From positions 1 through 17,144 of the forward strand of contig JBMFJD010000013.1 in assembly GCA_049974095.1 (NCBI GenBank): DNA of 17,144 nucleotides, in the 5' to 3' direction. The stretch is from Nanopusillaceae archaeon. GTDB taxonomy: Archaea > Nanobdellota > Nanobdellia > Nanobdellales > Nanobdellaceae. The position numbers were made by a program, and so were the translations under genes. Position 1 is the first letter of the stretch, and each line of letters opens with the position of its first letter. This document shows, in pieces, positions 470 through 16,917 of this stretch. The notes under the pieces are model-generated. The model was not told the origin of the DNA and made no database searches. It was given only the letters and a program-made list of their open reading frames with translations.

Positions 470-691
470 ATGGACAAAGAGAAGAAACTCAAAAATGTTA
501 CAACAACTGTACCAATAGAAATATATGAAAAAATTAAGGAAATGAAGATACCAATATCTAGACTTATATTACTAGGATACGAATCAGCCACTAAACAAAA
601 AGAAGAGGACAATCAAATAAGAGACTTACTAATAAGAATATATAACAAATTGTTAGATATTGAAGAATTAATAAAAAAGCCTAAATCTTAA
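470..691 (+). CDS. Ribbon-helix-helix (CopG/Arc/MetJ-like) DNA-binding protein, 73 aa
   Basis: The track ORF 452..691 starts at a TTG. The in-frame ATG at 470 sits 27 nt from the TATA-like box. MDKEKKLKNVTTTVPIEIYEKIKEMKIPISRLILLGYES fits a beta-strand/helix/turn/helix RHH pattern, followed by a coiled-coil-like tail. Confidence 0.55.
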   Translation: MDKEKKLKNVTTTVPIEIYEKIKEMKIPISRLILLGYESATKQKEEDNQIRDLLIRIYNKLLDIEELIKKPKS

Positions 692-1340
692 GAAAGTTAA
701 CATAGTTCCTATTCATATATAGTTTCTTTAAGAAATCATATAATTTTCTAATATTATTAACATCTCTTAGATTATACTCTACTAATTTATTAATATCGCT
801 ATATAAATCTTCTGTAAATTCATATTTTTCATCTAAATTTAACTCTTGAACTATATCTTTTAAAGAATAAAACTTAAAATCTCCTTTCTTTGCATACATA
901 TATATTGCTGTTGGTACAACAAGATCTAATATAGATACTATACTAAAGAATCTGGTCAGTGGTTTTATATTATACTTTCTAGCTTTATATATTAATAATG
1001 GAATATCTAAATACATTATACCATATCCAACGATTTGTCCAATTAACTTATTATATAATATTTTCCCAAGATGCTCTAATATTCTTTTTTCATCATCTAT
1101 ACCTCCATAAACAGTAAATGGTTCTAATTCATATTCATCAGTTACAATATTTCCACTATTTACAACATGGTTAACTGGTAATAACATAGCGACAGAGATT
1201 ATATGTACATTATCAAAACTAAGATTTTCATCAAATTTTGGATATGTTTCTATATCTATGAACCCGACATATCTATTATCATATAATCTAAACAAATTAT
1301 GAAAGTGTATATTCCAAGACCTTATCAACGCCTCATCCAT
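681..1340 (-). CDS. Stand-alone DEDDy-type 3'-5' exonuclease (RNase H-like fold; PolB exonuclease-domain / YprB-like), 219 aa
   Basis: Exo I-like motif YVGFIDIETYP. Exo II-like motif IVGYGIMYLDIPLLIYKARKYNI. Exo III-like motif YNLRDVNNIRKLYDFL (Y-x3-D). The first 19 codons of the track ORF (to 1397) run through the promoter region, so I start at the internal Met (MDEALIRSW, 1340), which is 28 nt from a TATA box. Confidence 0.6.
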   Translation of the reverse strand: MDEALIRSWNIHFHNLFRLYDNRYVGFIDIETYPKFDENLSFDNVHIISVAMLLPVNHVVNSGNIVTDEYELEPFTVYGGIDDEKRILEHLGKILYNKLIGQIVGYGIMYLDIPLLIYKARKYNIKPLTRFFSIVSILDLVVPTAIYMYAKKGDFKFYSLKDIVQELNLDEKYEFTEDLYSDINKLVEYNLRDVNNIRKLYDFLKKLYMNRNYVNFLKI

Positions 1341-1406
1341 TACTATATGATATAACAAATATTTATATGTGTTAAAGAATATAATTATATAAAACAAATA
1401 TTAATA
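1341..1406. promoter_or_regulatory. Divergent promoter region for the exonuclease and membrane-protein genes
   Basis: The element aaatatttatatgtgtt (1357-1373) is 28 nt from minus-strand ATG 1340. A second TATA-like box, ataattatataaaac, lies about 25 nt before plus-strand ATG 1407. Bases 1352-1373 are a perfect 22-bp reverse-complement match to 15740-15761. Confidence 0.5.
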
Positions 1407-5546: not shown

Positions 5547-6685
5547 GCTTGTTGTTGAGGTGGTTGTTGTTGGCCTTGAGGTTGTTGTGGTGCTTGTGGT
5601 ATAGATATATTACCAGATAATATACCTCTAATTTCTGCCAATTGTGCAGACAATTGCTTTAATTTATCTATTACATCATTTTGTACTGCAATAATTTTTT
5701 CTGGAGCTAATGATGTTTCTAATGTTTTAATCCTTGCTGAATATTCATTAATCAGATCTTGTAAGTGCTCAGATTTTGATCTTTCTTGAGCAACATCCAA
5801 TTGCATTGCAGTACTAGATTCTACTGCTGCGAGTGTCGTAGGTAATACAATATTCTTAATATCTCTCATTGTTTTTTCATATAGATTCAATGAAGCAGTA
5901 GATACCGTACTAGCTACAGAGTTATATACCTTCTGTATCTGATTCTGTACAGATATCATCTCAGCATTAACCTTCGTAGATTCTAAATCATTTACTAATC
6001 TATTAATTGTTTGTTGTAATTCACCAATTATCTTTTCTGCTGGTTCACCACCATACATTCTATTCAATAAGTATGCAGGTACCTTTACAAGATTACCAGT
6101 TGGATCCTTATATAATAATAATGTAATTGATTCTGGAAGTTGTGATGCTAAATTTTCTGGATGGAATATTGCTTCCCATAATGAACCAAAGGGAGGTGTC
6201 ATAAATTCTTCTTTACCAGCTTTAATAACAAAGGCAATACCACCATCAGGATGTATAATTATATCTTTTAAATATCCTAACTTTTGTTTTGTTATATCAT
6301 AAACAACAGGAGGTTTTCTGAATGGAAGTAATCCTGCAGATCTAGCCCTCCTTAATAGATCATATAGTGATATTGGTAATTTACCAGTAGCCTTTTCTTC
6401 CTCATATAATTCTTCTAATATCTTACCAAATGCTTGCGACCTTAATTTATTTAACTCCTCTTCTAATTGTTTAGCTTTCTCCTCGCTTAATATTTTTTCC
6501 TGTCTTTCCTTTAATAATTGCTCGGTTAAAATTCTTGTTTGCTCATCTCTTGGTAATTGGGATATATCAATATTAGTAGGTTTAATTACACCAGCTGCTT
6601 TACCAAACTTATACTTAATATAATTAATCATTAAAGAGAAGGTATATTTATAGGCTTCCAATAATGTTTTAAATGGATTCTTCAT
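5543..6685 (-). CDS. Coiled-coil protein, 380 aa, with a Q/P-rich C-terminal tail
   Basis: Heptad-like charged segments (EQLLKERQEKILSEEKAKQLEEELNKLRSQ, and the C-terminal half). Tail is PQAPQQPQGQQQPPQQQA. ATGA overlaps at both ends. Confidence 0.6.
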   Translation of the reverse strand: MKNPFKTLLEAYKYTFSLMINYIKYKFGKAAGVIKPTNIDISQLPRDEQTRILTEQLLKERQEKILSEEKAKQLEEELNKLRSQAFGKILEELYEEEKATGKLPISLYDLLRRARSAGLLPFRKPPVVYDITKQKLGYLKDIIIHPDGGIAFVIKAGKEEFMTPPFGSLWEAIFHPENLASQLPESITLLLYKDPTGNLVKVPAYLLNRMYGGEPAEKIIGELQQTINRLVNDLESTKVNAEMISVQNQIQKVYNSVASTVSTASLNLYEKTMRDIKNIVLPTTLAAVESSTAMQLDVAQERSKSEHLQDLINEYSARIKTLETSLAPEKIIAVQNDVIDKLKQLSAQLAEIRGILSGNISIPQAPQQPQGQQQPPQQQA

Positions 6686-8526
6686 TGTTTTCTAATTTCC
6701 TGAGTAATTTTCTCAGCCAATTCAGTAACACCTTTAGAAGAAGATTTTCTGTATATTATTATTGATATCAATGTAAATGCTAAGATTGCTATAACTATAT
6801 ATAATACATTACCTTCCAACCAAGAGGTAATATTGAATGATGGTTTTGGTGGAGGAATATATGGAGGTGAAATATAAATTGTATATGTAGTAGTATTAAT
6901 TAGAGGTCCTGAGATATCCAATTCATATTGTCCAATTGTAAAGTTATATGTTAATGATCCAGTACCAGTTGCTTCCTGTACTCTAGTACCATTAATATAT
7001 TCATATAATATTAATTGCGCCTGATCTACAAAATCACCTTGTGCTTGTATTGTATATTCTCCAGGTGTAGTTGGTAAATTACTTACAGTTATTGGTGTAT
7101 AACCAAGAAGGGTAATGTTTGTTAATGAATAACCTGGTGCGGATATTGTAATCATATTTTGACCTTCTTGTATGGGGAATGTTGTAGAATATGTAGGTAT
7201 ACCATTATAATAGAATGTTGCTCCAAGTACAGGTTGCATTGAATTACAATCATAAACACTCTGTATAGTTACATTAGTTCCATCTGGATAATATATGTTT
7301 CCATTATATTGCTGTCCTTTTGGAGATATTATATAACATAAAGGTCTTGGAGGTGCTTGAACACATGAGAAGAATGGTACATAATTTTGCGCATACGAGT
7401 ATATACAATATGTCTGTCCAGGAATAACAGGTATAGGATATTGATATGATAATGCTTGACCATTTGGTCCTATTACTAATATATTTGCATTTGGTATATA
7501 GTATGTGGATCCATTATAATATACATATGCGCCTTGAATAAATAGATAACCAGAAGATATTGTATAATTAACCTGTAATGGTAATTGAACAGTAGCGGGA
7601 ATTGGACTTGTTTGTTGTGTAGTAGATTGCGTATTAGTAATATTTTGTCCTAATGAACTTATAACATATAAATCAATACTGGTTTGAGCATTATAAACTT
7701 TATTATCAGCTTCTCCAGTATATACTATGACTATATTATATTGTCCTAGAGGCATTCCGGCAGTATTAATATATAAAGTCATATATGCATACTGTCCCGG
7801 TGCCAATGTTCCAACCCCTCCTTGAATATAAGCATTTTGAGGTGGTAATCCTTGAATAAGTACATTTAATATTGTTAAATTATCATTACCTGTATTTATA
7901 ATACCAATTGGATACTCATATGTTTGATTTGTATATAAGGTTAGTGATGCAAATGAATATAATGGAGTTATAGGATTAGATACATTTGTTGTTGGTGGTG
8001 TAGACACAGTAGTGGTAGTAGTAACATTAGAGGTTGGAGTTGTAGTAGTAACATTCTGTAAAGTAGTTGTAGTACCAACATTAAATACAAAACCATAAGT
8101 AATATTATAAGTAGTTAATGTGGTACCATTTGTATTATTGACATTTGGTACAAAAAAGAAACTTATCATACCAGATCCTGATTGCGCAACCGACAATTGT
8201 AATGGTGTAATACCAGTAAGTATAGAAATATTAGCAGAATAAGATTGCCCAGATGCTAAATATGAACCTGCAGAATATAATGCTGTAGGAGAACCAGAAT
8301 AGGTTATTGTAACATTATATGGAACCTCTGTATTATATATATTCAGATATACGAACGGAGAACTAGGGTTAAGATTACACATATATGAAGCCGGAGAAGA
8401 TTGGACACAGTTAGGTACTGTTATTGCTGGTTGAGCTTTAACAGAAAAAATAAATATTAGGGACATTAACAATACACTGATATACCTTCTGACCCTATCA
8501 CGAATTGTCTTTACTTCACCATTCAT
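6682..8526 (-). CDS. Membrane-anchored, heavily N-glycosylatable surface or adhesin-like protein, about 614 aa: signal peptide, Thr-rich linker, CARDB/Ig-like beta-rich regions, C-terminal TM anchor
   Basis: The track ORF begins at a TTG (8583). ATGs lie at 8541 and 8526. The 8526 ATG is about 28 nt from the TATA-like ttataaatataaat. N-terminus is MNGEVKTIRDRVRRYISVLLMSLIFIFSVKAQP. Linker is NVTTTTPTSNVTTTTTVSTPPTTNVS. There are dozens of N-x-S/T sequons. LAPGQYAYMTLYINTAGMPLGQYNIVIVYTGE resembles a CARDB-type beta-sandwich. C-terminal anchor is LYIVIAILAFTLISIIIYRK. Confidence 0.7.
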   Translation of the reverse strand: MNGEVKTIRDRVRRYISVLLMSLIFIFSVKAQPAITVPNCVQSSPASYMCNLNPSSPFVYLNIYNTEVPYNVTITYSGSPTALYSAGSYLASGQSYSANISILTGITPLQLSVAQSGSGMISFFFVPNVNNTNGTTLTTYNITYGFVFNVGTTTTLQNVTTTTPTSNVTTTTTVSTPPTTNVSNPITPLYSFASLTLYTNQTYEYPIGIINTGNDNLTILNVLIQGLPPQNAYIQGGVGTLAPGQYAYMTLYINTAGMPLGQYNIVIVYTGEADNKVYNAQTSIDLYVISSLGQNITNTQSTTQQTSPIPATVQLPLQVNYTISSGYLFIQGAYVYYNGSTYYIPNANILVIGPNGQALSYQYPIPVIPGQTYCIYSYAQNYVPFFSCVQAPPRPLCYIISPKGQQYNGNIYYPDGTNVTIQSVYDCNSMQPVLGATFYYNGIPTYSTTFPIQEGQNMITISAPGYSLTNITLLGYTPITVSNLPTTPGEYTIQAQGDFVDQAQLILYEYINGTRVQEATGTGSLTYNFTIGQYELDISGPLINTTTYTIYISPPYIPPPKPSFNITSWLEGNVLYIVIAILAFTLISIIIYRKSSSKGVTELAEKITQEIRKQ

Positions 8527-8541
8527 AAAATATGAATACAT

Positions 8542-8575
8542 ATTTATATTTATAAGTGTTGCTAAATGTATCAAA
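8542..8575 (-). promoter_or_regulatory. Probable promoter of the glycoprotein operon
   Basis: The minus strand reads acacttataaatataaat directly upstream of the two candidate ATGs. Spacing favours a leaderless start at 8526. Confidence 0.4.
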
Positions 8576-8583
8576 GCGTACAA

Positions 8584-8937
8584 AGATACTATGAACTTAT
8601 AACAAAATACGGGTTACTACTTACATATACTTGGCACTTAATAATTTATTACTAGTAAATACTTATAAATAAACTGTTTAAATGAGACGAATTAGGTAGT
8701 ACTCATTACGCTATACGAAGAACCACAGACTTGGCACTGGAAAAAAAGATGATAAATGAAACAAATTAATTTTAACTTGGAATTAATACAGGGCACACCC
8801 CCTACTATATTATTTATTGCCAAATATTATAAGTTTTCCGCCAAATATGGTGGTATTAGCATAAACAGTATATGGATTATATAGTGCTAGAATAATTAAT
8901 AATATGGCTAGAAAAATATATAATAAAGTTATAGGCC
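8584..8937. other. About 350-bp non-coding region with short dispersed direct repeats
   Basis: No ORF longer than about 12 codons with an ATG on the minus strand. acttggcac occurs at about 8629 and about 8729. gccaaatat occurs at about 8819 and about 8840. There is a G/C island gggcacaccccc (8791-8802) and a 6-bp hairpin aatgag-N15-ctcatt. Confidence 0.5.
8908..8937 (-). terminator. Possible oligo-T terminator after the RAMP-like gene
   Basis: Immediately after the TGA, the minus strand reads ggcctataactttattatatatttttct. Archaeal termination typically uses T-runs. Confidence 0.3.
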
Positions 8938-9558
8938 TCATCTTTTATTATTTACAGGTCTTAATTTACATACTCCATAACCTAAATTCCTACCTCTTCC
9001 TATTTTTATTGTTATTTCCTCATTTAAATCCGACTGTGCTTCAATTAAGAATCTACTACCATCAGTAATCGCTTCTAATATTACTGGTGATTTTGTTTTA
9101 CTATTATAGTTAGCATATAACATTAAGGATATATTTTCAGGTTTTACATCTGTTAATATAAAATCTGCACCACCATCATATTTCACTGCATATCTTAATG
9201 GTCTAATAAAGTAAGACCACCAGTCAATCCATGATAAATAATCCTCATAAGTTTTAATTTTACCAATATCTGCATGTTTTCTCGGAAATAAATAATCAAT
9301 TTTTATGTATCCATCGTCAAGTAATGGTTTCTCTAATTCCTTCTTTTTAATCTTATAAACCTCTTTCAGTGCTGAATCCCTGTCCATTTTCTCAAATAGA
9401 TCCTTATACTTTGCTATATCTTCCTCCGTTAGTACAATTTTATGCTCTAATATCTTAAAATCTTTCATATCCATTTTTGCAAATACCCTAAAAGAAAATA
9501 CTTCCTTATTCAATCCACCCAATATCGGAGTTATAACTTCTAGCTCGTATGATGCCAT
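8938..9558 (-). CDS. RAMP / Cas6-like protein, 206 aa (putative RNA-binding protein or endoribonuclease)
   Basis: The C-terminal glycine-rich loop IKIGRGRNLGYGVCKL fits the RAMP G-x-G-x3-G-x-G loop near the C-terminus (compare the Cas6e-type GIGxxKxxGxGLL). The N-terminal YELEVITPILGG resembles the beta1 'TPxxxGG' of Cmr1/Cas7-type RAMPs. It is the last gene of the operon. Confidence 0.4.
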   Translation of the reverse strand: MASYELEVITPILGGLNKEVFSFRVFAKMDMKDFKILEHKIVLTEEDIAKYKDLFEKMDRDSALKEVYKIKKKELEKPLLDDGYIKIDYLFPRKHADIGKIKTYEDYLSWIDWWSYFIRPLRYAVKYDGGADFILTDVKPENISLMLYANYNSKTKSPVILEAITDGSRFLIEAQSDLNEEITIKIGRGRNLGYGVCKLRPVNNKR

Positions 9559-9563
9559 ACATA

Positions 9564-9836
9564 CTAATATGTGTAAATACTCTTAAAAACCTTAAGGTTT
9601 GGTATTATTATATATAATTTTCCATCTACTTCAGATACAATACCCAATGATTTTAATATAGATATAACATCCTTATCAAATGAGTATGAATCTAGAAAGT
9701 ATATTACACCATCAAGAGTACCATAATTATCTATAAGCTTTTTAATAATATCCTGTATTTTTGGGTCTGTTATAAGATCAAGTAGTTTATATATATCTAT
9801 ATTATCTAAAATGAATAATCTATAACCTATAGACAT
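9564..9836 (-). CDS. Small winged-helix-like protein, 90 aa
   Basis: ISILKSLGIVSEVDGKLYIIIP resembles a recognition helix plus beta-wing. It overlaps the upstream gene by 17 nt and ends 5 nt before the next start. Confidence 0.4.
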   Translation of the reverse strand: MSIGYRLFILDNIDIYKLLDLITDPKIQDIIKKLIDNYGTLDGVIYFLDSYSFDKDVISILKSLGIVSEVDGKLYIIIPNLKVFKSIYTY

Positions 9837-11601
9837 CGTTTTCTAATTTAATTTCTTTTCTTGCAACCATTTCATTCAATATTCTGTCTAATACTAGTAA
9901 TACATTAGTTTCTCTCTTAATAATTATTTGCCTATTTTCTACCATATTTTGTATTATTTGTCTCAGTTCATTTAACCTTTTTGGACCAGTAGATAAAATA
10001 TTCTTTATAACACCTTCTAGATCTTTTTGTGATGATATAATATACTGTATCTTAATATTACAATATTTATCATAAAATACACCGAGGTATGATTTATAGA
10101 AATCTAATACATTCTTTGCCTGTAGTGTAGTATTCATAAAAGATAATAAATGCATTAATGAAAAAAATGCAATAGCATATTTTACTTCATCAATAGTAAT
10201 AGTAGTCCTATTATTTAATACAGCAAATATCTTAGCCATTTTACTTATTGTCTCCTTTCTTTCATATAAGAACTCATAGAATTGTGGATAAAATCTATTT
10301 ATATTTTTAGCCTCATCCTCAAATAACTTATCGAAATTACCAGTAATATTATAACTATTCAACATATGCTTAACAAATTGGATATAATCATACATATTAT
10401 ACCCAGATACCTGTAATGGTATATCTACAGCAATTGGTACTAAGAAATCTACTTTCTCAACATAGTATTGGAACATCCTTAACAAAGTATTATATAATGA
10501 TGTAAAGGACGAGAAATCTGTATACTTAGAAGATTTATATACTAATATTATATTTTTACCCTCATATAATGCTTTGTCTATCTTTATCTTTAATTCCTTA
10601 GTAGTCTGTTGTACATTATTAATTATCATATTATCATCAATAATAGACGGACTACTAGTAACCCTATAATGTAATATTGAAGCTATTTTATCAATATATA
10701 TTTGCTTGGCATCAATATACATTACAGAAAAGTTATAGAATAAATTGAATACTACAGGTAATGTGGTTAATACATCATCAATATCTAAATATGCTAAAAG
10801 ATGTAATAATTTCTCATCAGGTCTTAACTTTAATATATTTAACATATTATACATATTATACTCATAGTCGTCAATAATGTACAAACCTATCGCAAGATAA
10901 GCTTTCGTAACAACCTTCCTATGTATAATTTCCTGAGCAAGCTCCCTATCCATTTCAATAGCAATATATTTATATCTTAGCTTACTCTCCTTAGCAAACC
11001 TGTATAATTCTTCAGGTATTATTAAAGCAATATTACCCAATCTAGTATCTTCCCCATATATCTTTACCCCATTAAGAACAACCCTAGTAAATCCTACAAT
11101 AGATGATACATTACCCTTAAATGAACATACAGGACATGATAATGGAGGATATTTCTTTAATGATAATATATGATGACCTCTCTCACATGTAGATCTATTA
11201 ATGTATATCGATTCCATTACCACCCTATTTGGCTTAACATTTAATTCTAAAAGGTTATATACAGATTTTAATCTTTGATATAATGGATTCTTTAAATCTC
11301 TAATAATTAGGAATACCATAGGTATATTAGATAATATCTTTATTTTCTCATTTTCTAATGAGAATAATGCATATGATGAATTTTCAAGATAAGTTGTTAA
11401 ATCATTACCAGATAGCAAAAAGTTATATACATCATATAGTGGAGAATATTTATTATCTGGTTCATCACCCATGATATAATAATATTGATCTAGATCAATG
11501 AATAAAGAATTATTATATAATAAACCTACATGTATATCTGGTGGAGTATTTACAATAAAATTATATGGGTTCTTATTAGTAATTATTTTAGTAGGAAGCA
11601 T
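9820..11601 (-). CDS. Large Zn-ribbon protein, 593 aa. Either an MCM-like N-terminal domain with a degenerate ATPase and C-terminal wH, or an AEP primase-like N-terminus. Unresolved.
   Basis: C139/H143-H144/C156/C159 (STCERGHHILSLKKYPPLSCPVCSFKG) parallels the MCM Zn module of the neighbouring MCM (HEKCGYEF...ICPKCGESG) and is roughly collinear with it. There is no intact Walker A or B; the closest is IILVYKSSKYT. It has a lid-like helix ISKMAKIFAVLNNRTTITIDEVKYAIAFF and a wH-like C-terminus ...MVARKEIKLENDVYRL. Alternatively, LFIDLD (hhhDhD) and ERGHHIL resemble AEP primase motifs I and II. Confidence 0.35.
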   Translation of the reverse strand: MLPTKIITNKNPYNFIVNTPPDIHVGLLYNNSLFIDLDQYYYIMGDEPDNKYSPLYDVYNFLLSGNDLTTYLENSSYALFSLENEKIKILSNIPMVFLIIRDLKNPLYQRLKSVYNLLELNVKPNRVVMESIYINRSTCERGHHILSLKKYPPLSCPVCSFKGNVSSIVGFTRVVLNGVKIYGEDTRLGNIALIIPEELYRFAKESKLRYKYIAIEMDRELAQEIIHRKVVTKAYLAIGLYIIDDYEYNMYNMLNILKLRPDEKLLHLLAYLDIDDVLTTLPVVFNLFYNFSVMYIDAKQIYIDKIASILHYRVTSSPSIIDDNMIINNVQQTTKELKIKIDKALYEGKNIILVYKSSKYTDFSSFTSLYNTLLRMFQYYVEKVDFLVPIAVDIPLQVSGYNMYDYIQFVKHMLNSYNITGNFDKLFEDEAKNINRFYPQFYEFLYERKETISKMAKIFAVLNNRTTITIDEVKYAIAFFSLMHLLSFMNTTLQAKNVLDFYKSYLGVFYDKYCNIKIQYIISSQKDLEGVIKNILSTGPKRLNELRQIIQNMVENRQIIIKRETNVLLVLDRILNEMVARKEIKLENDVYRL

Positions 11602-12430
11602 ATCCTAATAATGGATTGGCAACACTAATAAAATATTTTAAGGCCTCTTCAATATACTGTTCCTTAACAATATTATCTCCATAACTTCTAGCAATTGCCT
11701 TCGCTAACCTTATTATTGTATTTACCCTCCTACCAGTAAAATATAAACCAGTATATGATATATTTAGATTAACCCTAATATTTTCTGGTACCTGTACATT
11801 AATACTTCTAACCGTGTTCAAATAATTCAATAGCTCATTATTATCAAAAGTATATGTCTCTTCAGTATGAGAACCAAACGATCTATTTAATAAAAATATT
11901 AGATCAAGTCTATCAATAACAGTACCTGGTAAATCAAGTTCATCTAAATAGTTCTTACTCTCAAAGAAATCCTTTCTTGGGTTAGCTGCAGCAAGTACTG
12001 CAAGATTAACATCATAAGATACATCAACCTTTGCCTTTTCAATAGTTACTTTAAGATCCTCTAATAACTCATTTAATGAATTTTTGAATGTCTTATTAGC
12101 CTTATCAAGCTCATCTATACATAATATATTATTTACTTTAGATATTGTACCATGTACAAACCCTACTTTTCTATCAGGATATCCATATAATCCAGGTATT
12201 GTAGTAGTTTGTGCATTAACATATAGAGAACCAGGTATATTACTAACAAATTTTAGGATATGAGTCTTACCAGTACCTGGTATCCCGTATAGTAATATAT
12301 GTATCGAATCTCTGAAGAATTGACTCTTACCAATAGATATTAATTGGTAAGCAATACCTAACCTTATCTTAGCATAAATATTACCCTTGAGTGAAGGGAA
12401 CAAACCATTAATAAGATCCTGGAAATCCAT
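11588..12430 (-). CDS. MCM-family AAA+ ATPase core without the N-terminal (Zn/OB) or C-terminal wH domains, 280 aa
   Basis: Walker A LLYGIPGTGKTHIL. Walker B ILCIDELDKA (MCM IDEFDK type). VTIEKAKVDVSYDVNLAVLAAANP matches KAGI...AAANP (pre-sensor-1 hairpin and sensor 1). VIDRLDLIFLL is the SRFDLIF arginine-finger region. TGRRVNTIIRLAKAIARS is the sensor 2 / lid. The protein starts where the MCM ATPase domain normally starts (FPSLKGNIYAKIRLGIAYQL). It overlaps the downstream gene by 14 nt. Confidence 0.8.
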   Translation of the reverse strand: MDFQDLINGLFPSLKGNIYAKIRLGIAYQLISIGKSQFFRDSIHILLYGIPGTGKTHILKFVSNIPGSLYVNAQTTTIPGLYGYPDRKVGFVHGTISKVNNILCIDELDKANKTFKNSLNELLEDLKVTIEKAKVDVSYDVNLAVLAAANPRKDFFESKNYLDELDLPGTVIDRLDLIFLLNRSFGSHTEETYTFDNNELLNYLNTVRSINVQVPENIRVNLNISYTGLYFTGRRVNTIIRLAKAIARSYGDNIVKEQYIEEALKYFISVANPLLGYASY

Positions 12431-12769: not shown

Positions 12770-14902
12770 ATGGTAGTAGGATATGAAGAAATTATTAATA
12801 AAATAGATCTAAAATCTCTTTTTTTAAAATATATAGCAGTACAGAAGAAGGTAGATAGAGAGATGATGTTTTTACAATATATGGATGAAACCCCAGTAAA
12901 AGAAGCATTATTATTATATGAGAAAATAAAGGATGATCTATCAGATTCTATTAAAAAGAATAAATCTGTTGTTGCCATTCCTGCTTCAAAGCTTTTTGAA
13001 TCGTTTGGAGTATTAGCTTTAGATATTTTAAATGATGCAGAAACATATGAATTGTTCACAAAATTTATGGAATATATATTAGACTGGAGATTTCACTCTG
13101 CATATCCAATAAATGTTACTATTGCAAAATTACCAGCAGAAGAGGAGGAAGATCCAAAAAGAAGAGCATTTACAAAGGAGATAAGATTAATAAATAAGAG
13201 CATGTTAAACAGGGTAATACAAATACCTGCAATAGTAGTAGCAACTACAGAGAATTATATTCATGTAGCATCAATAAAATATAGACATGAGAAATGTGGG
13301 TATGAATTTGAAGTACCACAAGGACCATTTACAAAAGAAAAACCAAAGATATGTCCAAAATGTGGGGAATCTGGTAAATTCATAGAGGTAGAATATAAAA
13401 AGACAAATGGTAAGAAGTTATTATTATCAGATTTACCAGAAAACCTGAAGGTAGGAAAACCTGGAGTAATAATGGCCCTCATGTATAGAGATTATTTATT
13501 TGATCCATACAATGAAGTAAATGTATATCCAGGTATGCGTGCATATATAGTTGGTATAGTAAAATCTGCAAAAAAGGAAAAAGAGAAGGAAGAACAATTA
13601 TACATAGATGTATTATGGATAGAACCATTAGAAGAAAAGAAGATTGAATTAACAGATAAGGATAAAGAACAATTAAAAAACATGTTACCAGAGGGTGATG
13701 TTATAAAGTTCATTGCAGATACTATGTTCCCAAATATTTATGGTACACAATACTCATTTATTAAACAAGCAATATTATTAGCAATAGTATCTGGATATGA
13801 TAAGATAGATGATAACATAAAGAAATATTATAAACTAGACAGGTTAAATATACATGTGTTAATGGTAGGTGGACCTGGTACTGGTAAATCAACAATATTA
13901 GAAAGAGTAGTAAGGTTAGTACCAAGATCTTCATACATTACATTAACAACCGCAACAACAACAGGTTTAACAGCATCTGTTAGAAAAGATCCTGTATTGG
14001 GAGATTGGGTATTAGAAGTTGGTGCCATACCTCTAGTAGCTAATGGTGTTGCATGTATAGATGAGATCGATAAAATACCAAAACAAGAAATAACAAAACT
14101 ACATGAAGTAATGGAACAGCAAACAATTACAATACATAAAGCAAACATTCATACATTAATAGAATCTCCAGTATCAATTATAGCAGCAGCAAATCCAAAG
14201 TTTGGAAAATGGGATATACATCAAGACATATTAGCACAAATAGATCTACCACAAACAATATTAGACAGATTTGATCTAATATTTGCAATAATACCAGAAC
14301 AACAAGAAATGAAGGTAATTGGTAAAGAGATAATTAGAAATGTAAATATTAGTGAAACACCAACAATCGATGATCAAACATTAACAAAATATATAGTATA
14401 TGCTAGGAGTATCATACCTGAATGGACAGATCCTGCAATAGGAGAACTAGATAAATTATATGAAGAATTATCTAGTAAACCTGGTATATATATTACAACA
14501 AGACAGATAAATACAATAGTAAGGTTGGCAATTGCATCAGCAAAGGCAAGGTTATCAAAATATATAACAGAGTGGGATGTACAAAAAGCAAAAGAGATAT
14601 ATCTTTCATCCTTATATAGTATAGGAGTAGATCCATTTACACACCAGGTAGATATAACAATAAAAGAAACTGGATTTTCAAGATCAGAAGCAACATTAGC
14701 ACAATTAGTAGTAGATTCTATAAAAGAATTAGAAAAAGATTTTCCAAATGGTGTACCAATATCAGAAATTGTAAATTCGATAAAGAATAAAAATGTTGAT
14801 GTAGATGAAGAATCTGTAAAATATATAATAGAAAAATTGAAGAAGGTTGGTGAAGTATATGAATCTGGAGAAAATAAAGTAAAAAGAATAGTAAAAAGCT
14901 AA
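12770..14902 (+). CDS. mcm: Full-length archaeal-type MCM replicative helicase, 710 aa
   Basis: N-terminal domain with Zn module HEKCGYEF...KICPKCGESG. Walker A VLMVGGPGTGKST. Walker B VACIDEIDK. ITIHKANIHTLIESPVSIIAAANP. Arginine finger LDRFDLIFAI. Sensor 2 / lid ITTRQINTIVRLAIASAKA. C-terminal wH-like tail. Length is typical for archaeal MCM and gives no sign of an intein. Confidence 0.92.
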   Translation: MVVGYEEIINKIDLKSLFLKYIAVQKKVDREMMFLQYMDETPVKEALLLYEKIKDDLSDSIKKNKSVVAIPASKLFESFGVLALDILNDAETYELFTKFMEYILDWRFHSAYPINVTIAKLPAEEEEDPKRRAFTKEIRLINKSMLNRVIQIPAIVVATTENYIHVASIKYRHEKCGYEFEVPQGPFTKEKPKICPKCGESGKFIEVEYKKTNGKKLLLSDLPENLKVGKPGVIMALMYRDYLFDPYNEVNVYPGMRAYIVGIVKSAKKEKEKEEQLYIDVLWIEPLEEKKIELTDKDKEQLKNMLPEGDVIKFIADTMFPNIYGTQYSFIKQAILLAIVSGYDKIDDNIKKYYKLDRLNIHVLMVGGPGTGKSTILERVVRLVPRSSYITLTTATTTGLTASVRKDPVLGDWVLEVGAIPLVANGVACIDEIDKIPKQEITKLHEVMEQQTITIHKANIHTLIESPVSIIAAANPKFGKWDIHQDILAQIDLPQTILDRFDLIFAIIPEQQEMKVIGKEIIRNVNISETPTIDDQTLTKYIVYARSIIPEWTDPAIGELDKLYEELSSKPGIYITTRQINTIVRLAIASAKARLSKYITEWDVQKAKEIYLSSLYSIGVDPFTHQVDITIKETGFSRSEATLAQLVVDSIKELEKDFPNGVPISEIVNSIKNKNVDVDEESVKYIIEKLKKVGEVYESGENKVKRIVKS

Positions 14903-16123: not shown

Positions 16124-16151
16124 ATATAGATATTATACAATTATCTTTATA

Positions 16152-16256
16152 AATTGTTATCACTGTTTACGAGGAATATACCCAACTACCATGCTTCCCA
16201 AAAAATATATATAATATATATTTTTTTACGCGTAAGGTTTTGTGTAGAACACATAT
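16152..16256 (+). repeat. About 105-bp repeat unit R1 (box1 - A/T spacer - box2)
   Basis: aattgttatcactgtttacgaggaatatacc...cttccc / aaaaaatatatataatatatattttttt / acgcgtaaggttttgtgtagaacacatatt. Aligns by eye with R2 at roughly three-quarters identity. Confidence 0.8.
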
Positions 16257-16274
16257 TATTATAGTAAAATATAG

Positions 16275-16380
16275 AATTGTTATTACTCTTTACGGGTATT
16301 ATACCTTCCATTGAGTTTCCCAAAGGAAATATATATATATTATTTTTTTACGCATGGGGTTTTGTGTAGAATATGTGTTC
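16275..16380 (+). repeat. About 105-bp repeat unit R2, direct copy of R1 about 123 bp downstream
   Basis: aattgttattactctttacgggtattatacc...gtttccc / aaaggaaatatatatatattattttttt / acgcatggggttttgtgtagaatatgtgtt. Confidence 0.8.
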
Positions 16381-16716
16381 TATTATATATTATTATTATA
16401 TAAATATTATAATATAATATAATAAAAATATTTATATATTATTATATAACTATTTATTACTAATAAATAGTAAAAAAATCTCTTTTAATATATATTTTTA
16501 ATAAATATTAATATGTGTTTATTATTATATTATATAATATTATTTATTATTATAACAAATATTTAACAAATATTAAAAAGGTATATATAAAGGAAATTTT
16601 TTACTATTTATTAGTAATAAATAATAACAATATTATTTATAAATATTATATAATATATTATTAATAATTATTATTTTTTAATAATAATTTTTTATATAAT
16701 AATAAATAATAATAAT
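16381..16716. promoter_or_regulatory. About 336-bp extreme A+T core; candidate DNA-unwinding element of a replication origin
   Basis: My hand count gives about 16 G/C in 336 nt, or about 95% A+T. No ORF. It is bracketed by R2 and inverted R3. Confidence 0.55.
16451..16623. repeat. Perfect 27-bp inverted repeat inside the A+T core (arms 16451-16477 and 16597-16623, 119-bp spacer)
   Basis: tatttattactaataaatagtaaaaaa versus ttttttactatttattagtaataaata, which are exact reverse complements. Each arm also holds its own 9-bp palindrome, tatttatta-N-taataaata. Confidence 0.85.
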
Positions 16717-16820
16717 AACATGTGTTTAACACAACAGGGTCTTCGTGAAAAATTATATAATATATATTTTTTTTCGGAGACCCCCTGGTAGGTCATATTC
16801 CTGGTAATAAGTAGTAACAT
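16717..16820 (-). repeat. About 105-bp repeat unit R3, inverted copy of R1/R2
   Basis: Its reverse complement reads atgttactacttattaccaggaatatgacctaccagggggtctcc / gaaaaaaaatatatattatataattttt / cacgaagaccctgttgtgttaaacacatgtt. It is collinear with R1 at roughly 65-80% identity per segment by eye. Confidence 0.7.
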
Positions 16821-16917
16821 AAGGACATATATCTTGAACGGATGTAACATCCACAAAAGTCCCTTTTAGTGTCCCTTCAAAAAGTATGAAGTGACCTTCA
16901 GGTCCCTTGGATCCCAT
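16753..16917 (-). CDS. Possible small ORF, 54 aa, below the ORF-track cutoff
   Basis: Hand translation gives MGSKGPEGHFILFEGTLKGTFVDVTSVQDICPYVTTYYQEYDLPGGLRKKIYII. It lies in a locally G/C-richer patch. Its 3' third overlaps repeat R3. The promoter is only weak. It could instead be non-coding binding sites (gtccctt x3). Confidence 0.25.
   Translation of the reverse strand: MGSKGPEGHFILFEGTLKGTFVDVTSVQDICPYVTTYYQEYDLPGGLRKKIYII

What the first reader, a model, noticed from the sequence alone, without database searches (positions are those of the whole stretch)
8938..9558. RAMP / Cas6-like protein on a mobile element with no CRISPR array or other cas genes in view
The near-C-terminal loop IGRGRNLGYGV and the N-terminal beta-strand ending ITPILGG are the two hallmarks of RAMP (RRM-like) Cas proteins. 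The window has no CRISPR repeats and no other cas genes. An orphan RAMP on a virus or plasmid could process a virus-encoded RNA, act as a decoy or anti-CRISPR against host type I/III complexes, or be an exapted RNA-binding subunit for the MCM-like motor. The 350-bp non-coding, repeat-bearing region directly downstream (8584-8937) is a candidate RNA partner.
Basis: partly seen in the sequence, partly recalled or inferred. Interest (0 to 1): 0.7.

Follow-up and report, generated by a model that had tools for sequence, protein, structure and literature searches.

The report
Orphan RAMP-like protein of archaeal viruses
This virus-like element from a hot-spring nanoarchaeal genome bin carries a conserved gene whose predicted protein most resembles the RNA-binding "RAMP" subunits of CRISPR complexes although no CRISPR system is nearby, and a distant relative sits among known anti-CRISPR genes of an Acidianus virus, so it may be a CRISPR-subunit mimic.

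Summary
The ORF at 8938-9558 (-) is a real gene for a 206-aa protein, with dN/dS about 0.1. The motifs are TPxL[AG]G after strand 1 and IG[RK]x[RK]NxG[FY]G near the C-terminus.

No curated Cas profile reaches significance, and hhalign against Cmr1/3/4/6 and Cas6 is non-significant. A confident AlphaFold model (pLDDT 92.6) nevertheless finds almost only CRISPR RAMP chains among its 50 best PDB matches. Cmr3 ranks first, at E about 4e-3 over roughly 70 residues. No match reaches E 1e-3.

The best viral structural match, AFV7 gp13, is also a weak sequence relative. On its own it hits only RAMP models, all sub-threshold. It lies beside AcrIII-1, an AcrIIIB1 homologue and ADG.05.

In the window the gene is fourth in an operon: truncated MCM, a 593-aa protein, a 90-aa winged-helix-like protein, the RAMP-like protein, then a 43-aa membrane peptide. 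There are no cas genes, CRISPR array or Rfam hit. The "non-coding" downstream region is a conserved small ORF plus a promoter, not a structured RNA.

Verdict: "RAMP-like" is supported at motif and fold level. "Cas6-like" and the RNA partner are not. An anti-CRISPR subunit mimic is the leading but untested mechanism.

The parts
8938..9558 (-). RAMP-like ORF, 206 aa (P0001); fourth gene of the operon
   Evidence: ORF list. Homologues and purifying selection. AlphaFold model with pLDDT 92.6. Foldseek top hits are CRISPR RAMPs.
9514..9534 (-). N-terminal motif ITPILGG (residues 9-15), directly after predicted strand 1; family consensus TPxL[AG]G
   Evidence: Comparable to T. thermophilus Cmr1 'TYTLLTPLFGGG' and Cmr4 'ALSPLHAGTG'.
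9313..9441 (-). Charged helical insertion (about residues 40-82); absent from the shortest family members, so not part of the core
   Evidence: Secondary structure of the model. Gaps in P0012, P0013, P0021, P0022 and P0024 in the alignment.
8971..9003 (-). Glycine-rich loop IGRGRNLGYGV (residues 186-196), before the last strand; G193 and G195 invariant
   Evidence: This is the region that local hhalign alignments pair with the G-rich loops of Cmr1, Cmr3, Cmr4, Cmr6 and Cas6. Similar to the Cmr4 C-terminus 'LQLGGKATVGRGLCRIVV'.
8810..8941 (-). Conserved 43-aa hydrophobic (single-pass membrane-like) peptide gene; its start overlaps the RAMP-like stop codon (ATGA)
   Evidence: Present in L017, L020-22, L008, L013 and L014.
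8584..8809 (-). Intergenic region with two copies of AGTGCCAAGT and the TATA-like promoter of the 633-aa surface-protein gene; no evidence for a structured RNA
   Evidence: Alignment, motif count, folding z-score -0.81, no covariation.
9564..9836 (-). 90-aa protein immediately upstream (5-nt gap); weak match to the C-terminal part of JetB, which I read as a winged-helix domain; paired with the RAMP-like gene in relatives
   Evidence: PADLOC JetB match, E 7.7e-5. Homologues precede the RAMP-like gene in L005, L011-13, L017 and L020.
9820..11601 (-). 593-aa protein of unknown function with a Cys/His cluster; second gene of the operon
   Evidence: Syntenic homologues in L005, L017 and L020.
11588..12430 (-). 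Truncated MCM-type AAA+ protein (280 aa); first gene of the operon; paralogue of the full-length MCM at 12770-14902 (+)
   Evidence: Pfam MCM, E 1.4e-29. 31% identity to the full-length MCM.

Best explanation
The gene encodes a compact, highly diverged protein of the RAMP type. RAMPs are the RNA-binding subunits of CRISPR effector complexes; the closest resemblance here is to type III Cas5-group (Cmr3) and Cas7-group (Csm3/Cmr4) subunits. The protein belongs to a small family carried as a stand-alone gene by archaeal viruses and virus-like elements.

Shown:
- It is a real gene under purifying selection.
- It has conserved RAMP-style motifs.
- Its predicted fold has RAMPs as its best matches.
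- No cas gene or CRISPR array is nearby.
- It belongs to an early or replication-type operon.
- A distant homologue lies inside the anti-CRISPR gene cluster of AFV7.

Inferred:
- It binds RNA, or a CRISPR large subunit, through the surface formed by the glycine-rich loop, the loop after strand 1 and conserved basic residues (R24, R93, R/K188, R/K190).
- It lacks an obvious conserved catalytic Asp or His.

Most likely mechanism (inferred, untested): it is made early from the replication operon and acts as a defective stand-in for a host RAMP subunit. It would either take up crRNA or enter the host effector complex as a faulty subunit and so blunt CRISPR interference. This is the logic shown for the phage Cas5 homologue AcrIB3.

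My probability that it is RAMP-derived is about 0.75. My probability for the anti-CRISPR mimic mechanism is about 0.35-0.4.
For: Fold:
- The AlphaFold model built on 24 diverse sequences has pLDDT 92.6 and pTM 0.84.
- Foldseek against the PDB: about 47 of the top 50 hits are chains from CRISPR entries, nearly all whose identity I could place being RAMP subunits. Ranks 1, 2, 4, 5, 6, 7 and 13 are Cmr3 of A. fulgidus and P. furiosus, with prob about 1.0, E 4e-3 to 0.17 and rmsd 2.3-5 over 70-72 columns. Chain identities were confirmed.
- Foldseek against BFVD: rank 1 is AFV7 gp13 and rank 2 is a phage protein named 'Cas system-associated RAMP superfamily protein'.

Sequence:
- Both motifs are conserved.
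- The commonest sub-threshold PADLOC and NCBIfam hits across the 24 family members are RAMP models: one Csm3 model in 6 members, Cas6e in 3, plus single hits to Cas7_IIId, gRAMP and TIGR03986.

Bridge to AFV7 gp13:
- The family HMM picks AFV7 ORF161 out of 186 ORFs at E 7.9e-6; the next best is 0.11.
- hhalign gives probability 55%.
- ORF161 alone hits seven PADLOC models, all RAMP (Cas5_IIIf, Csm3, Cas7_IIId, Cas5, Cas6). In Pfam it hits only PF03787 RAMPs and Cas6_C.

Anti-CRISPR context:
- AFV7 gp11 is AcrIII-1 (PF08960, E 9e-31).
- gp12 is an AcrIIIB1 homologue and gp14 is ADG.05 (PMC11065993 supplement).
- gp13 lies between them on the same strand.
- gp13 is annotated 'hypothetical' where its neighbours are 'conserved hypothetical', and its only other hit in the phage collection is LAAV2 orf18. 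That is a patchy distribution.

Precedent: AcrIB3, a phage Cas5 homologue, inhibits type I-B Cascade (bioRxiv 10.1101/2023.06.24.545427).
Against: - No Cas or RAMP profile reaches its threshold for the window protein. Pfam, NCBIfam and PADLOC gave no RAMP or Cas match.
- hhalign against a 30-sequence Cmr3 alignment gives probability 0.13%. Against small Cmr1, Cmr4, Cmr6 and Cas6 alignments it stays below 3%, barely above the controls.
- Structural matches are local and weak: no hit with E <= 1e-3, and TM 0.25-0.3.
- I could not inspect coordinates, so the RRM topology is unverified.
- In the window clade the gene is a fixed, strongly constrained member of a replication-type operon with overlapping reading frames. 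That is unlike typical fast-turnover acr genes.
- At least one terrestrial nanoarchaeon (Nst1) lacks CRISPR-Cas altogether (PMC3655853), and the host of this element is known only from binning.
- AFV7 gp13 itself was not listed as an anti-defence gene in PMC11065993.
- The link from the window protein to gp13 rests on weak scores (19 bits).

Confidence: 0.4

Rival explanations
1. It is an accessory factor of the element's own replication or expression module. A RAMP/RRM-type protein that binds single-stranded nucleic acid would work with the truncated MCM, the 593-aa protein and the small winged-helix-like protein. Possible roles are at the origin, on primers or on viral transcripts. It would have nothing to do with host CRISPR.
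For: The gene order is fixed: short MCM, 593 aa, 90-99 aa, RAMP-like. Reading frames overlap or abut in the window, in L017 and L020, and in the 42%-identity relative L005. Purifying selection is strong. The gene is present in every colinear relative seen. The host lineage may lack CRISPR-Cas.
Against: The more distant homologues on L001/L002, L007 and L010, and in AFV7 and LAAV2, are not next to MCM or any recognisable replication gene. The family is therefore portable and independent of this module. I know of no precedent for a RAMP in replication. The AFV7 homologue sits among anti-CRISPR genes.
Confidence: 0.25
2. It is a Cas6- or Cas5d-like endoribonuclease that processes an RNA. The substrate could be a transcript of the element, or host pre-crRNA that it destroys or mis-processes.
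For: RAMP-like fold and G-rich loop. Cas6 chains appear among the weaker Foldseek hits (ranks 35 and 42). A few members give sub-threshold Cas6/Cas6e hits. R93 and E162 are invariant, and H95 is present in 13 of 24 members.
Against: No repeated hairpin or array in the window. The downstream region shows no conserved structure. The shortest members (159-167 aa) are too small for a typical tandem-RRM Cas6. No His, Tyr or Lys catalytic set is conserved across the family. The best structural matches are the non-processing subunits Cmr3 and probable Csm3.
Confidence: 0.1
3. It is not RAMP-derived at all. It would be an unrelated small alpha/beta protein, perhaps a structural or membrane-associated partner of the adjacent 43-aa peptide, whose glycine-rich C-terminal loop and TPxLAG motif resemble RAMPs by convergence. 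That resemblance would pull weak Foldseek and HMM hits toward Cas proteins.
For: Every sequence comparison with Cas families is non-significant. A simple G-loop pattern also matches non-RAMP proteins of T. thermophilus pTT27. Foldseek E-values are all above 1e-3 and cover only a third of the protein. The gene is translationally coupled to a membrane peptide.
Against: RAMP chains from at least ten different Cas families fill the top 50 PDB hits, while unrelated folds appear only at E >= 1. A named RAMP protein ranks second among viral models. The distant homologue AFV7 gp13 independently hits only RAMP models in two libraries.
Confidence: 0.2

Closest known systems
Cmr3 (Cas5-group RAMP of type III-B effector complexes; Pfam PF09700)
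   Same: Best structural matches (A. fulgidus and P. furiosus Cmr3). The aligned part is about 70 residues. The non-significant hhalign alignment places it in the C-terminal sheet, pairing the query's PVxxE and GSxF strands and its G[FY]G loop with Cmr3's PKPTRR, AGSVYF and DGFG.
   Different: Cmr3 is 320-390 aa with two ferredoxin-like domains, is always encoded next to Cmr2/Cas10, and is recognised by PF09700. The window protein is 206 aa (family minimum 159 aa). It has no PF09700 hit, its hhalign probability is 0.13%, and it has no cas neighbours.
Csm3 / Cmr4 (Cas7-group backbone RAMPs of type III systems; Pfam PF03787)
   Same: Similar size (about 200-290 aa). Both have the motif [ST]P[LIV]xxG after strand 1 and a G-rich loop followed by the last strand at the extreme C-terminus. 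Many chains of about 190-235 aa from Csm complexes, which I take to be Csm3, are among the Foldseek hits. Csm3 models are the commonest sub-threshold PADLOC hits.
   Different: There is no conserved acidic residue in the loop after strand 1, where Csm3 and Cmr4 carry the target-RNA-cleaving Asp (my knowledge of those families). All scores are sub-threshold. The full-length Foldseek alignments superpose poorly (rmsd about 20). It is a solitary gene.
AcrIB3 (Listeria phage Cas5 homologue acting as an anti-CRISPR)
   Same: A virus-encoded, stand-alone RAMP-family protein outside any CRISPR-cas locus. AcrIB3 was proposed to inhibit as a faulty Cascade subunit (bioRxiv 10.1101/2023.06.24.545427). 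This is the mechanistic model adopted here.
   Different: AcrIB3 is 38% identical to its cognate Cas5 and its activity was shown experimentally. The present family has no significant sequence similarity to any Cas protein, is archaeal, and is untested.
AFV7 gp13 (ORF161) and Los Azufres archaeal virus 2 orf18
   Same: Probable distant homologues. They share the N-terminal E-[IV]-x-T-P-[IV]-[IL]-A and the C-terminal YE...GS...IGxKKNKGFG. AFV7 gp13 is the top structural hit among viral models.
   Different: They are shorter (161-166 aa) and lack the helical insertion and the FPR arginine (R93 is Ser in gp13). They are encoded in crenarchaeal viruses, in an anti-CRISPR gene cluster rather than a replication operon.
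Cas6 endoribonucleases
   Same: C-terminal G-rich loop. Weak Foldseek hits (3zfv, 4ilm) and sub-threshold Cas6/Cas6e HMM hits in a few members.
   Different: No evidence of a tandem-RRM architecture, no conserved catalytic residues, no repeat substrate nearby. Cas6 chains rank well below Cmr3 and the Csm backbone chains.

Membership tests
RAMP superfamily (Cas5/Cas6/Cas7 groups) | Ferredoxin-like (RRM) core fold | tested here: inconclusive
RAMP superfamily (Cas5/Cas6/Cas7 groups) | Glycine-rich loop immediately before the last core strand | tested here: met
   IG[RK]x[RK]NxG[FY]G lies between predicted strands 182-185 and 196-201. G193 and G195 are invariant in 24 sequences.
RAMP superfamily (Cas5/Cas6/Cas7 groups) | Significant match to a curated RAMP/Cas profile | tested here: not met
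   The window protein has no RAMP or Cas match in Pfam, NCBIfam or PADLOC. Family members give only sub-threshold hits, E 1e-3 to 0.1. hhalign against Cmr1, Cmr3, Cmr4, Cmr6 and Cas6 stays below 3%.
RAMP superfamily (Cas5/Cas6/Cas7 groups) | Encoded in a cas operon or next to a CRISPR array | tested here: not met
   None in the window. None in any homologue locus examined.
Cas6 | Two tandem RRM domains of about 240-280 aa, with a match to a Cas6 profile | tested here: not met
   The protein is 206 aa and the family minimum is 159 aa. There is a single N-terminal strand motif and a single G-loop. The window protein has no Cas6 profile hit. Cas6 chains rank only 35 and 42 in Foldseek.
Cas6 | Repeat-derived hairpin or RNA substrate nearby, and endonuclease activity | tested here: not met
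   No array or repeated hairpin. The downstream region is not structured. Nuclease activity is not testable with these tools.
Csm3/Cmr4 (Cas7 group, type III) | Conserved catalytic Asp in the loop after strand 1 | tested here: not met
   No invariant acidic residue in positions 9-23. The only invariant residues are M1, R93, E162, G193 and G195.
Cmr3 (PF09700) | Profile match and adjacency to Cmr2/Cas10 | tested here: not met
   No PF09700 hit. hhalign probability 0.13%. No Cas10 in the window.
Anti-CRISPR (viral Cas-homologue class, e.g. AcrIB3) | Inhibits a CRISPR-Cas system | not testable with these tools
   Requires interference assays.
Anti-CRISPR (viral Cas-homologue class, e.g. AcrIB3) | Genomic association with known acr or anti-defence genes | tested here: inconclusive
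   Met for the distant homologue AFV7 gp13, which lies between AcrIII-1 / the AcrIIIB1 homologue and ADG.05. Not met in the window, where the neighbours are replication-type genes.

The most novel reading that the evidence does not exclude
This would be a previously unrecognised family of RAMP-derived proteins spread among unrelated archaeal viruses. Carriers would include elements binned with DPANN archaea (Nanopusillaceae, Aenigmatarchaeota) and the crenarchaeal viruses AFV7 and LAAV2. The family would be the first RAMP-type anti-CRISPR of archaeal viruses: a minimal Cas5/Cas7 mimic that poisons type III (or type I) effector assembly or sequesters crRNA. In the window lineage it would have become hard-wired into the early replication operon.
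Probability: 0.3. Interest if true: 0.75.

Novelty: new variant of a known kind. Interest (0 to 1): 0.6.

Why it matters
RAMP proteins are regarded as a signature of CRISPR-Cas systems. A conserved, stand-alone RAMP-like family on archaeal viruses, diverged beyond sequence recognition, would extend the recently shown idea that viruses turn cas genes against CRISPR. So far that idea rests on bacterial examples such as AcrIB3. This family would extend it to archaea, and possibly to viruses of DPANN archaea, whose virus-host biology is almost unknown.

It also gives a concrete candidate for testing in a tractable system. AFV7 gp13 lies beside AcrIII-1 and an AcrIIIB1 homologue, and it can be tested against Sulfolobales type III systems.

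If the protein instead serves the MCM-based replication module, it would be the first RAMP exapted for a role outside CRISPR.

Tried and rejected
- **Direct profile searches of the window protein.** Pfam, PHROGs, NCBIfam, PADLOC and PDB sequences gave no RAMP or Cas match.
- **AlphaFold on the six close homologues only.** The model was unusable at pLDDT 46. It was usable only after adding the distant representatives.
- **hhalign of the family.** Single T. thermophilus Cas proteins gave no signal. A 30-sequence Cmr3 alignment gave probability 0.13%. Small Cmr1, Cmr4, Cmr6 and Cas6 alignments from four further cmr loci all stayed below 3%, close to the controls.
- **Wider searches for relatives.** IMG/VR has no relative of the RAMP-like protein, the 593-aa protein or the short MCM. 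The GTDB genome scan found one locus on a probably mis-binned contig. The metagenome scan found five short loci.
- **The phage collection.** There is no nucleotide match to the window and no tblastn hit for the protein.
- **The downstream region as an RNA partner.** Rejected: a conserved 43-aa ORF, a promoter, z -0.81 and no covariation.
- **Circularity.** The contig has no terminal repeat.
- **The 593-aa neighbour.** No PDB sequence match. An AEP-primase reading based on 'FIDLD' and 'RGHH' strings is only my eye-reading and has no profile support.
Full report
**The object**

The window is a complete 17,144-bp contig that NCBI holds in a "Nanopusillaceae archaeon" MAG. Its G+C content is 22-32%. 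It has no terminal redundancy and no nucleotide match in the phage collection.

The gene content looks like a small archaeal virus or plasmid:
- a full-length MCM at 12770-14902 (+), Pfam E 7e-66;
- a divergently transcribed truncated MCM-type AAA+ protein of 280 aa;
- several multi-pass membrane proteins;
- a 633-aa Thr-rich protein with an N-terminal hydrophobic segment and a C-terminal anchor;
- many ORFs with no database match.

**Checking the observation**

The ORF at 8938-9558 (-) encodes 206 aa. ITPILGG is at residues 9-15 and IGRGRNLGYGV at residues 186-196.

It is a real gene. Six close homologues (70-100% identity) come from hot-spring and other metagenomes. Pairwise dN/dS is 0.09-0.13 at dS up to 1.6.

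An exhaustive HMM search of 1.8 billion cluster representatives found only 19, so the family is small. In the 24-sequence alignment the invariant positions are M1, R93, E162, G193 and G195. R24, F91 and I111 are nearly invariant. Both motifs are family features:
- T10 in 18 of 24 sequences, P11 in 21, A/G14 in 22, G15 in 19;
- the loop consensus is I-G-[RK]-x-[RK]-[NK]-x-G-[FY]-G, lying 6-14 residues from the C-terminus.

The window has no CRISPR-like array, tRNA or Rfam hit. Twenty ORFs scanned against Pfam show no Cas family.

**Is it a RAMP?**

By curated profiles the answer is no. The window protein has no RAMP or Cas match in Pfam, NCBIfam or PADLOC, and no PDB sequence match.

An AlphaFold model from the six close sequences was useless at pLDDT 46. 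With all 24 sequences the model is confident, at pLDDT 92.6 and pTM 0.84.

Foldseek against the PDB gives no hit at E <= 1e-3, but the ranking is striking. About 47 of the first 50 chains come from CRISPR entries, nearly all of which I could place as RAMP subunits.
- Ranks 1, 2, 4, 5, 6, 7 and 13 are Cmr3 of A. fulgidus and P. furiosus (E 4e-3 to 0.17, prob about 1.0, 70-72 columns, rmsd 2.3-5.3). I confirmed these chain identities by sequence.
- They are followed by chains of type IV-B, I-D, III-D and VII complexes, many chains of 190-235 aa from Csm complexes that I take to be Csm3, then Cmr4, Cas6 and Cas5d.
- Unrelated folds appear only at E >= 1.

Against predicted viral structures, rank 1 is an uncharacterised betalipothrixvirus protein (A7WKN2, E 2e-3). 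Rank 2 is a phage protein named "Cas system-associated RAMP superfamily protein".

At the sequence level the signal is weak but one-sided. Across the 24 members, the families most often hit below threshold are one Csm3 model (6 members) and Cas6e (3 members). There are single hits to Cas7_IIId, gRAMP and TIGR03986. In P0015 the Csm3 matches run from residue 44-47 to the profile's C-terminal end.

Cmr1 has "TYTLLTPLFGGG" and the Cmr4 C-terminus is "LQLGGKATVGRGLCRIVV".

Profile-profile tests are negative:
- hhalign against a 30-sequence Cmr3 alignment gives probability 0.13%. The alignment it chooses (query 124-199 against Cmr3 264-348, pairing GSxF with AGSVYF and GFG with GFG) has about the length of the Foldseek match.
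- Small alignments of Cmr1, Cmr4, Cmr6 and Cas6 give below 3%, G-loop to G-loop, only slightly above the controls.

I conclude that RAMP ancestry is probable (about 0.75) but not proven. The protein cannot be filed in any Cas family. "Cas6-like" is not favoured: the protein is small (family minimum 159 aa), has a single G-loop, and Cas6 chains rank low.

**A bridge to a cultured virus**

A7WKN2 corresponds to Acidianus filamentous virus 7 ORF161, also called gp13.
- The family HMM picks it out of the 186 ORFs of AFV7 and LAAV2 at E 7.9e-6, with the next best at 0.11.
- hhalign gives probability 55% over the C-terminal 42 columns.
- It shares the N-terminal "IIIEILTPVIAP" and the C-terminal "YEYLIAGS...LKIGAKKNKGFGIIKL".

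On its own, gp13 hits seven PADLOC models, and all seven are RAMPs: Cas5_IIIf at 0.0012, two Csm3 models, two Cas7_IIId models, Cas5 and Cas6. In Pfam it hits only PF03787 "RAMPs" and Cas6_C. Its only other relative in the phage collection is Los Azufres archaeal virus 2 orf18.

The AFV7 context is informative:
- gp11 (ORF109) is the AcrIII-1 ring nuclease family (PF08960, E 9e-31).
- PMC11065993 lists gp11 as AcrIII-1, gp12 as an AcrIIIB1 homologue and gp14 as anti-defence gene ADG.05.
- gp13 lies between them on the same strand.
- That study did not itself call gp13 an anti-defence gene.

**Context in the window**

The gene is fourth in a tightly packed minus-strand operon:
- truncated MCM (12430-11588);
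- a 593-aa protein (11601-9820), overlapping the first gene;
- a 90-aa protein with a weak match to the C-terminal part of JetB, which I read as a winged helix (9836-9564, E 7.7e-5);
- the RAMP-like gene after a 5-nt gap;
- a 43-aa hydrophobic peptide whose ATG overlaps the RAMP-like stop codon (8941-8810).

The same order is kept in the colinear relatives L017 and L020 and in the 42%-identity relative L005. The small peptide is kept even in 41-46% relatives.

The more distant homologues on L001/L002, L007 and L010 sit among unrelated ORFs on virus-like contigs. These include RHH, Hjc, lectin-like and pectate-lyase-like proteins, and no MCM is nearby. No homologue lies near cas genes.

**The proposed RNA partner**

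The stretch 8584-8937 consists of the conserved 43-aa ORF and a 226-nt spacer. The spacer has two copies of AGTGCCAAGT and the TATA-like promoter and start of the 633-aa gene. It folds no better than shuffled sequence (z -0.81) and shows no compensatory changes. It is not a good candidate RNA partner.

**Mechanism**

The following is shown:
- a constrained gene;
- RAMP-style motifs;
- a RAMP-like predicted fold;
- orphan status;
- membership of an early or replication-type operon;
- a distant homologue inside an anti-CRISPR island.

From these I infer binding of RNA or of a Cas large subunit. The binding surface would be the G-loop, the loop after strand 1 and conserved basic residues. There is no conserved catalytic Asp or His.

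The reading I favour (about 0.35-0.4) is a subunit mimic that poisons or sequesters host CRISPR effector components. This follows the demonstrated case of AcrIB3, a phage Cas5 homologue (bioRxiv 10.1101/2023.06.24.545427).

The rivals are:
- an accessory factor of the MCM-based replication or expression module (0.25), supported by the fixed synteny, and by the report that one terrestrial nanoarchaeon lacks CRISPR-Cas while N. equitans has type I-B (PMC3655853);
- a Cas6- or Cas5d-like RNA-processing enzyme (0.1);
- a non-RAMP protein with convergent motifs (0.2).

**Novelty and score**

Stand-alone viral cas homologues that act as anti-CRISPRs are known. A RAMP-like family that is this diverged, archaeal and spread over unrelated viruses did not turn up in my literature searches. 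I rate it a new variant of a known kind, with interest 0.6.

Noticed in passing
window 11588-12430 (-) and 12770-14902 (+): The element has two MCM-type genes in divergent orientation. One is a full-length MCM (OB, AAA+, lid and winged-helix domains). The other is a 280-aa copy with only the AAA+ and lid parts, 31% identical to the first. The pair is conserved in L005, L017 and L020. The inverted 'repeat' I2 (11696-11751 / 14481-14536) falls in the C-terminal parts of the two genes, on opposite strands, and probably reflects this paralogy.
   Followed up: partly
window 8810-8941 (-): A conserved 43-aa hydrophobic peptide gene is translationally coupled (ATGA overlap) to the RAMP-like gene. It is present in relatives down to 41% identity but not in L005.
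   Followed up: yes
window 16150-16900: This is an almost pure A+T stretch (16380-16720) with a 103-nt imperfect inverted repeat (16427-16529 / 16545-16647). It is flanked by two or three copies of an element of about 55 nt: an AT palindrome bracketed by G/C-rich arms, at 16195-16249 and 16317-16371, with a partial copy at about 16740-16790. It looks like a replication origin rather than an RNA gene or mini-array. There is no Rfam hit.
   Followed up: partly
window 8630-8745 (-): A 10-nt motif AGTGCCAAGT (AGTRCCAWGT in relatives) occurs twice, about 100 nt apart, upstream of the 633-aa gene's TATA-like box. At least one copy is kept in L017 and both are kept in L020/L021. It may be an operator for a small DNA-binding protein.
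   Followed up: partly
window 6682-8583 (-): A 633-aa Thr/Asn-rich protein with an N-terminal hydrophobic segment and a C-terminal membrane anchor, 56% identical to a homologue in L014. It is probably a glycosylated surface or spike protein, which suggests an enveloped or pleomorphic virion or a vesicle. The true start is probably the ATG at about 8529 (MNGEVK...), downstream of a conserved TATA-like box.
   Followed up: partly
window 9820-11601 (-): The 593-aa operon partner has the strings 'FIDLD' and 'ERGHH' and a Cys/His cluster (C-x4-H-H...C-P-V-C). It gives a weak PHROG match to the C-terminus of a DNA primase (E 0.002) and a weak AAA_lid_2 match. It could be a primase-like or degenerate MCM-like protein, but no profile supports either.
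   Followed up: partly
window 681-1397 (-): A 238-aa protein has weak matches to RNase H-like / DnaQ-type exonuclease domains of B-family DNA polymerases (Pfam RNase_H_2 at 0.045; PHROG DNA polymerase at 0.005). It may be a stand-alone proofreading exonuclease.
   Followed up: no
L023 (AFV7, AM087122) 6199-9013: AFV7 ORF161/gp13, a distant homologue of the window protein with RAMP-only sub-threshold hits, lies between AcrIII-1 (gp11), an AcrIIIB1 homologue (gp12) and ADG.05 (gp14). It was not listed as an anti-defence gene in PMC11065993. It is a ready candidate for experimental testing.
   Followed up: yes
L016 (T. thermophilus pTT27) 29427-30146 (-): A 239-aa hypothetical protein in the gene block just upstream of cmr2 ends with a RAMP-style loop 'GGRLVGYG' 16 residues from its C-terminus. 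It may be an unannotated RAMP.
   Followed up: no
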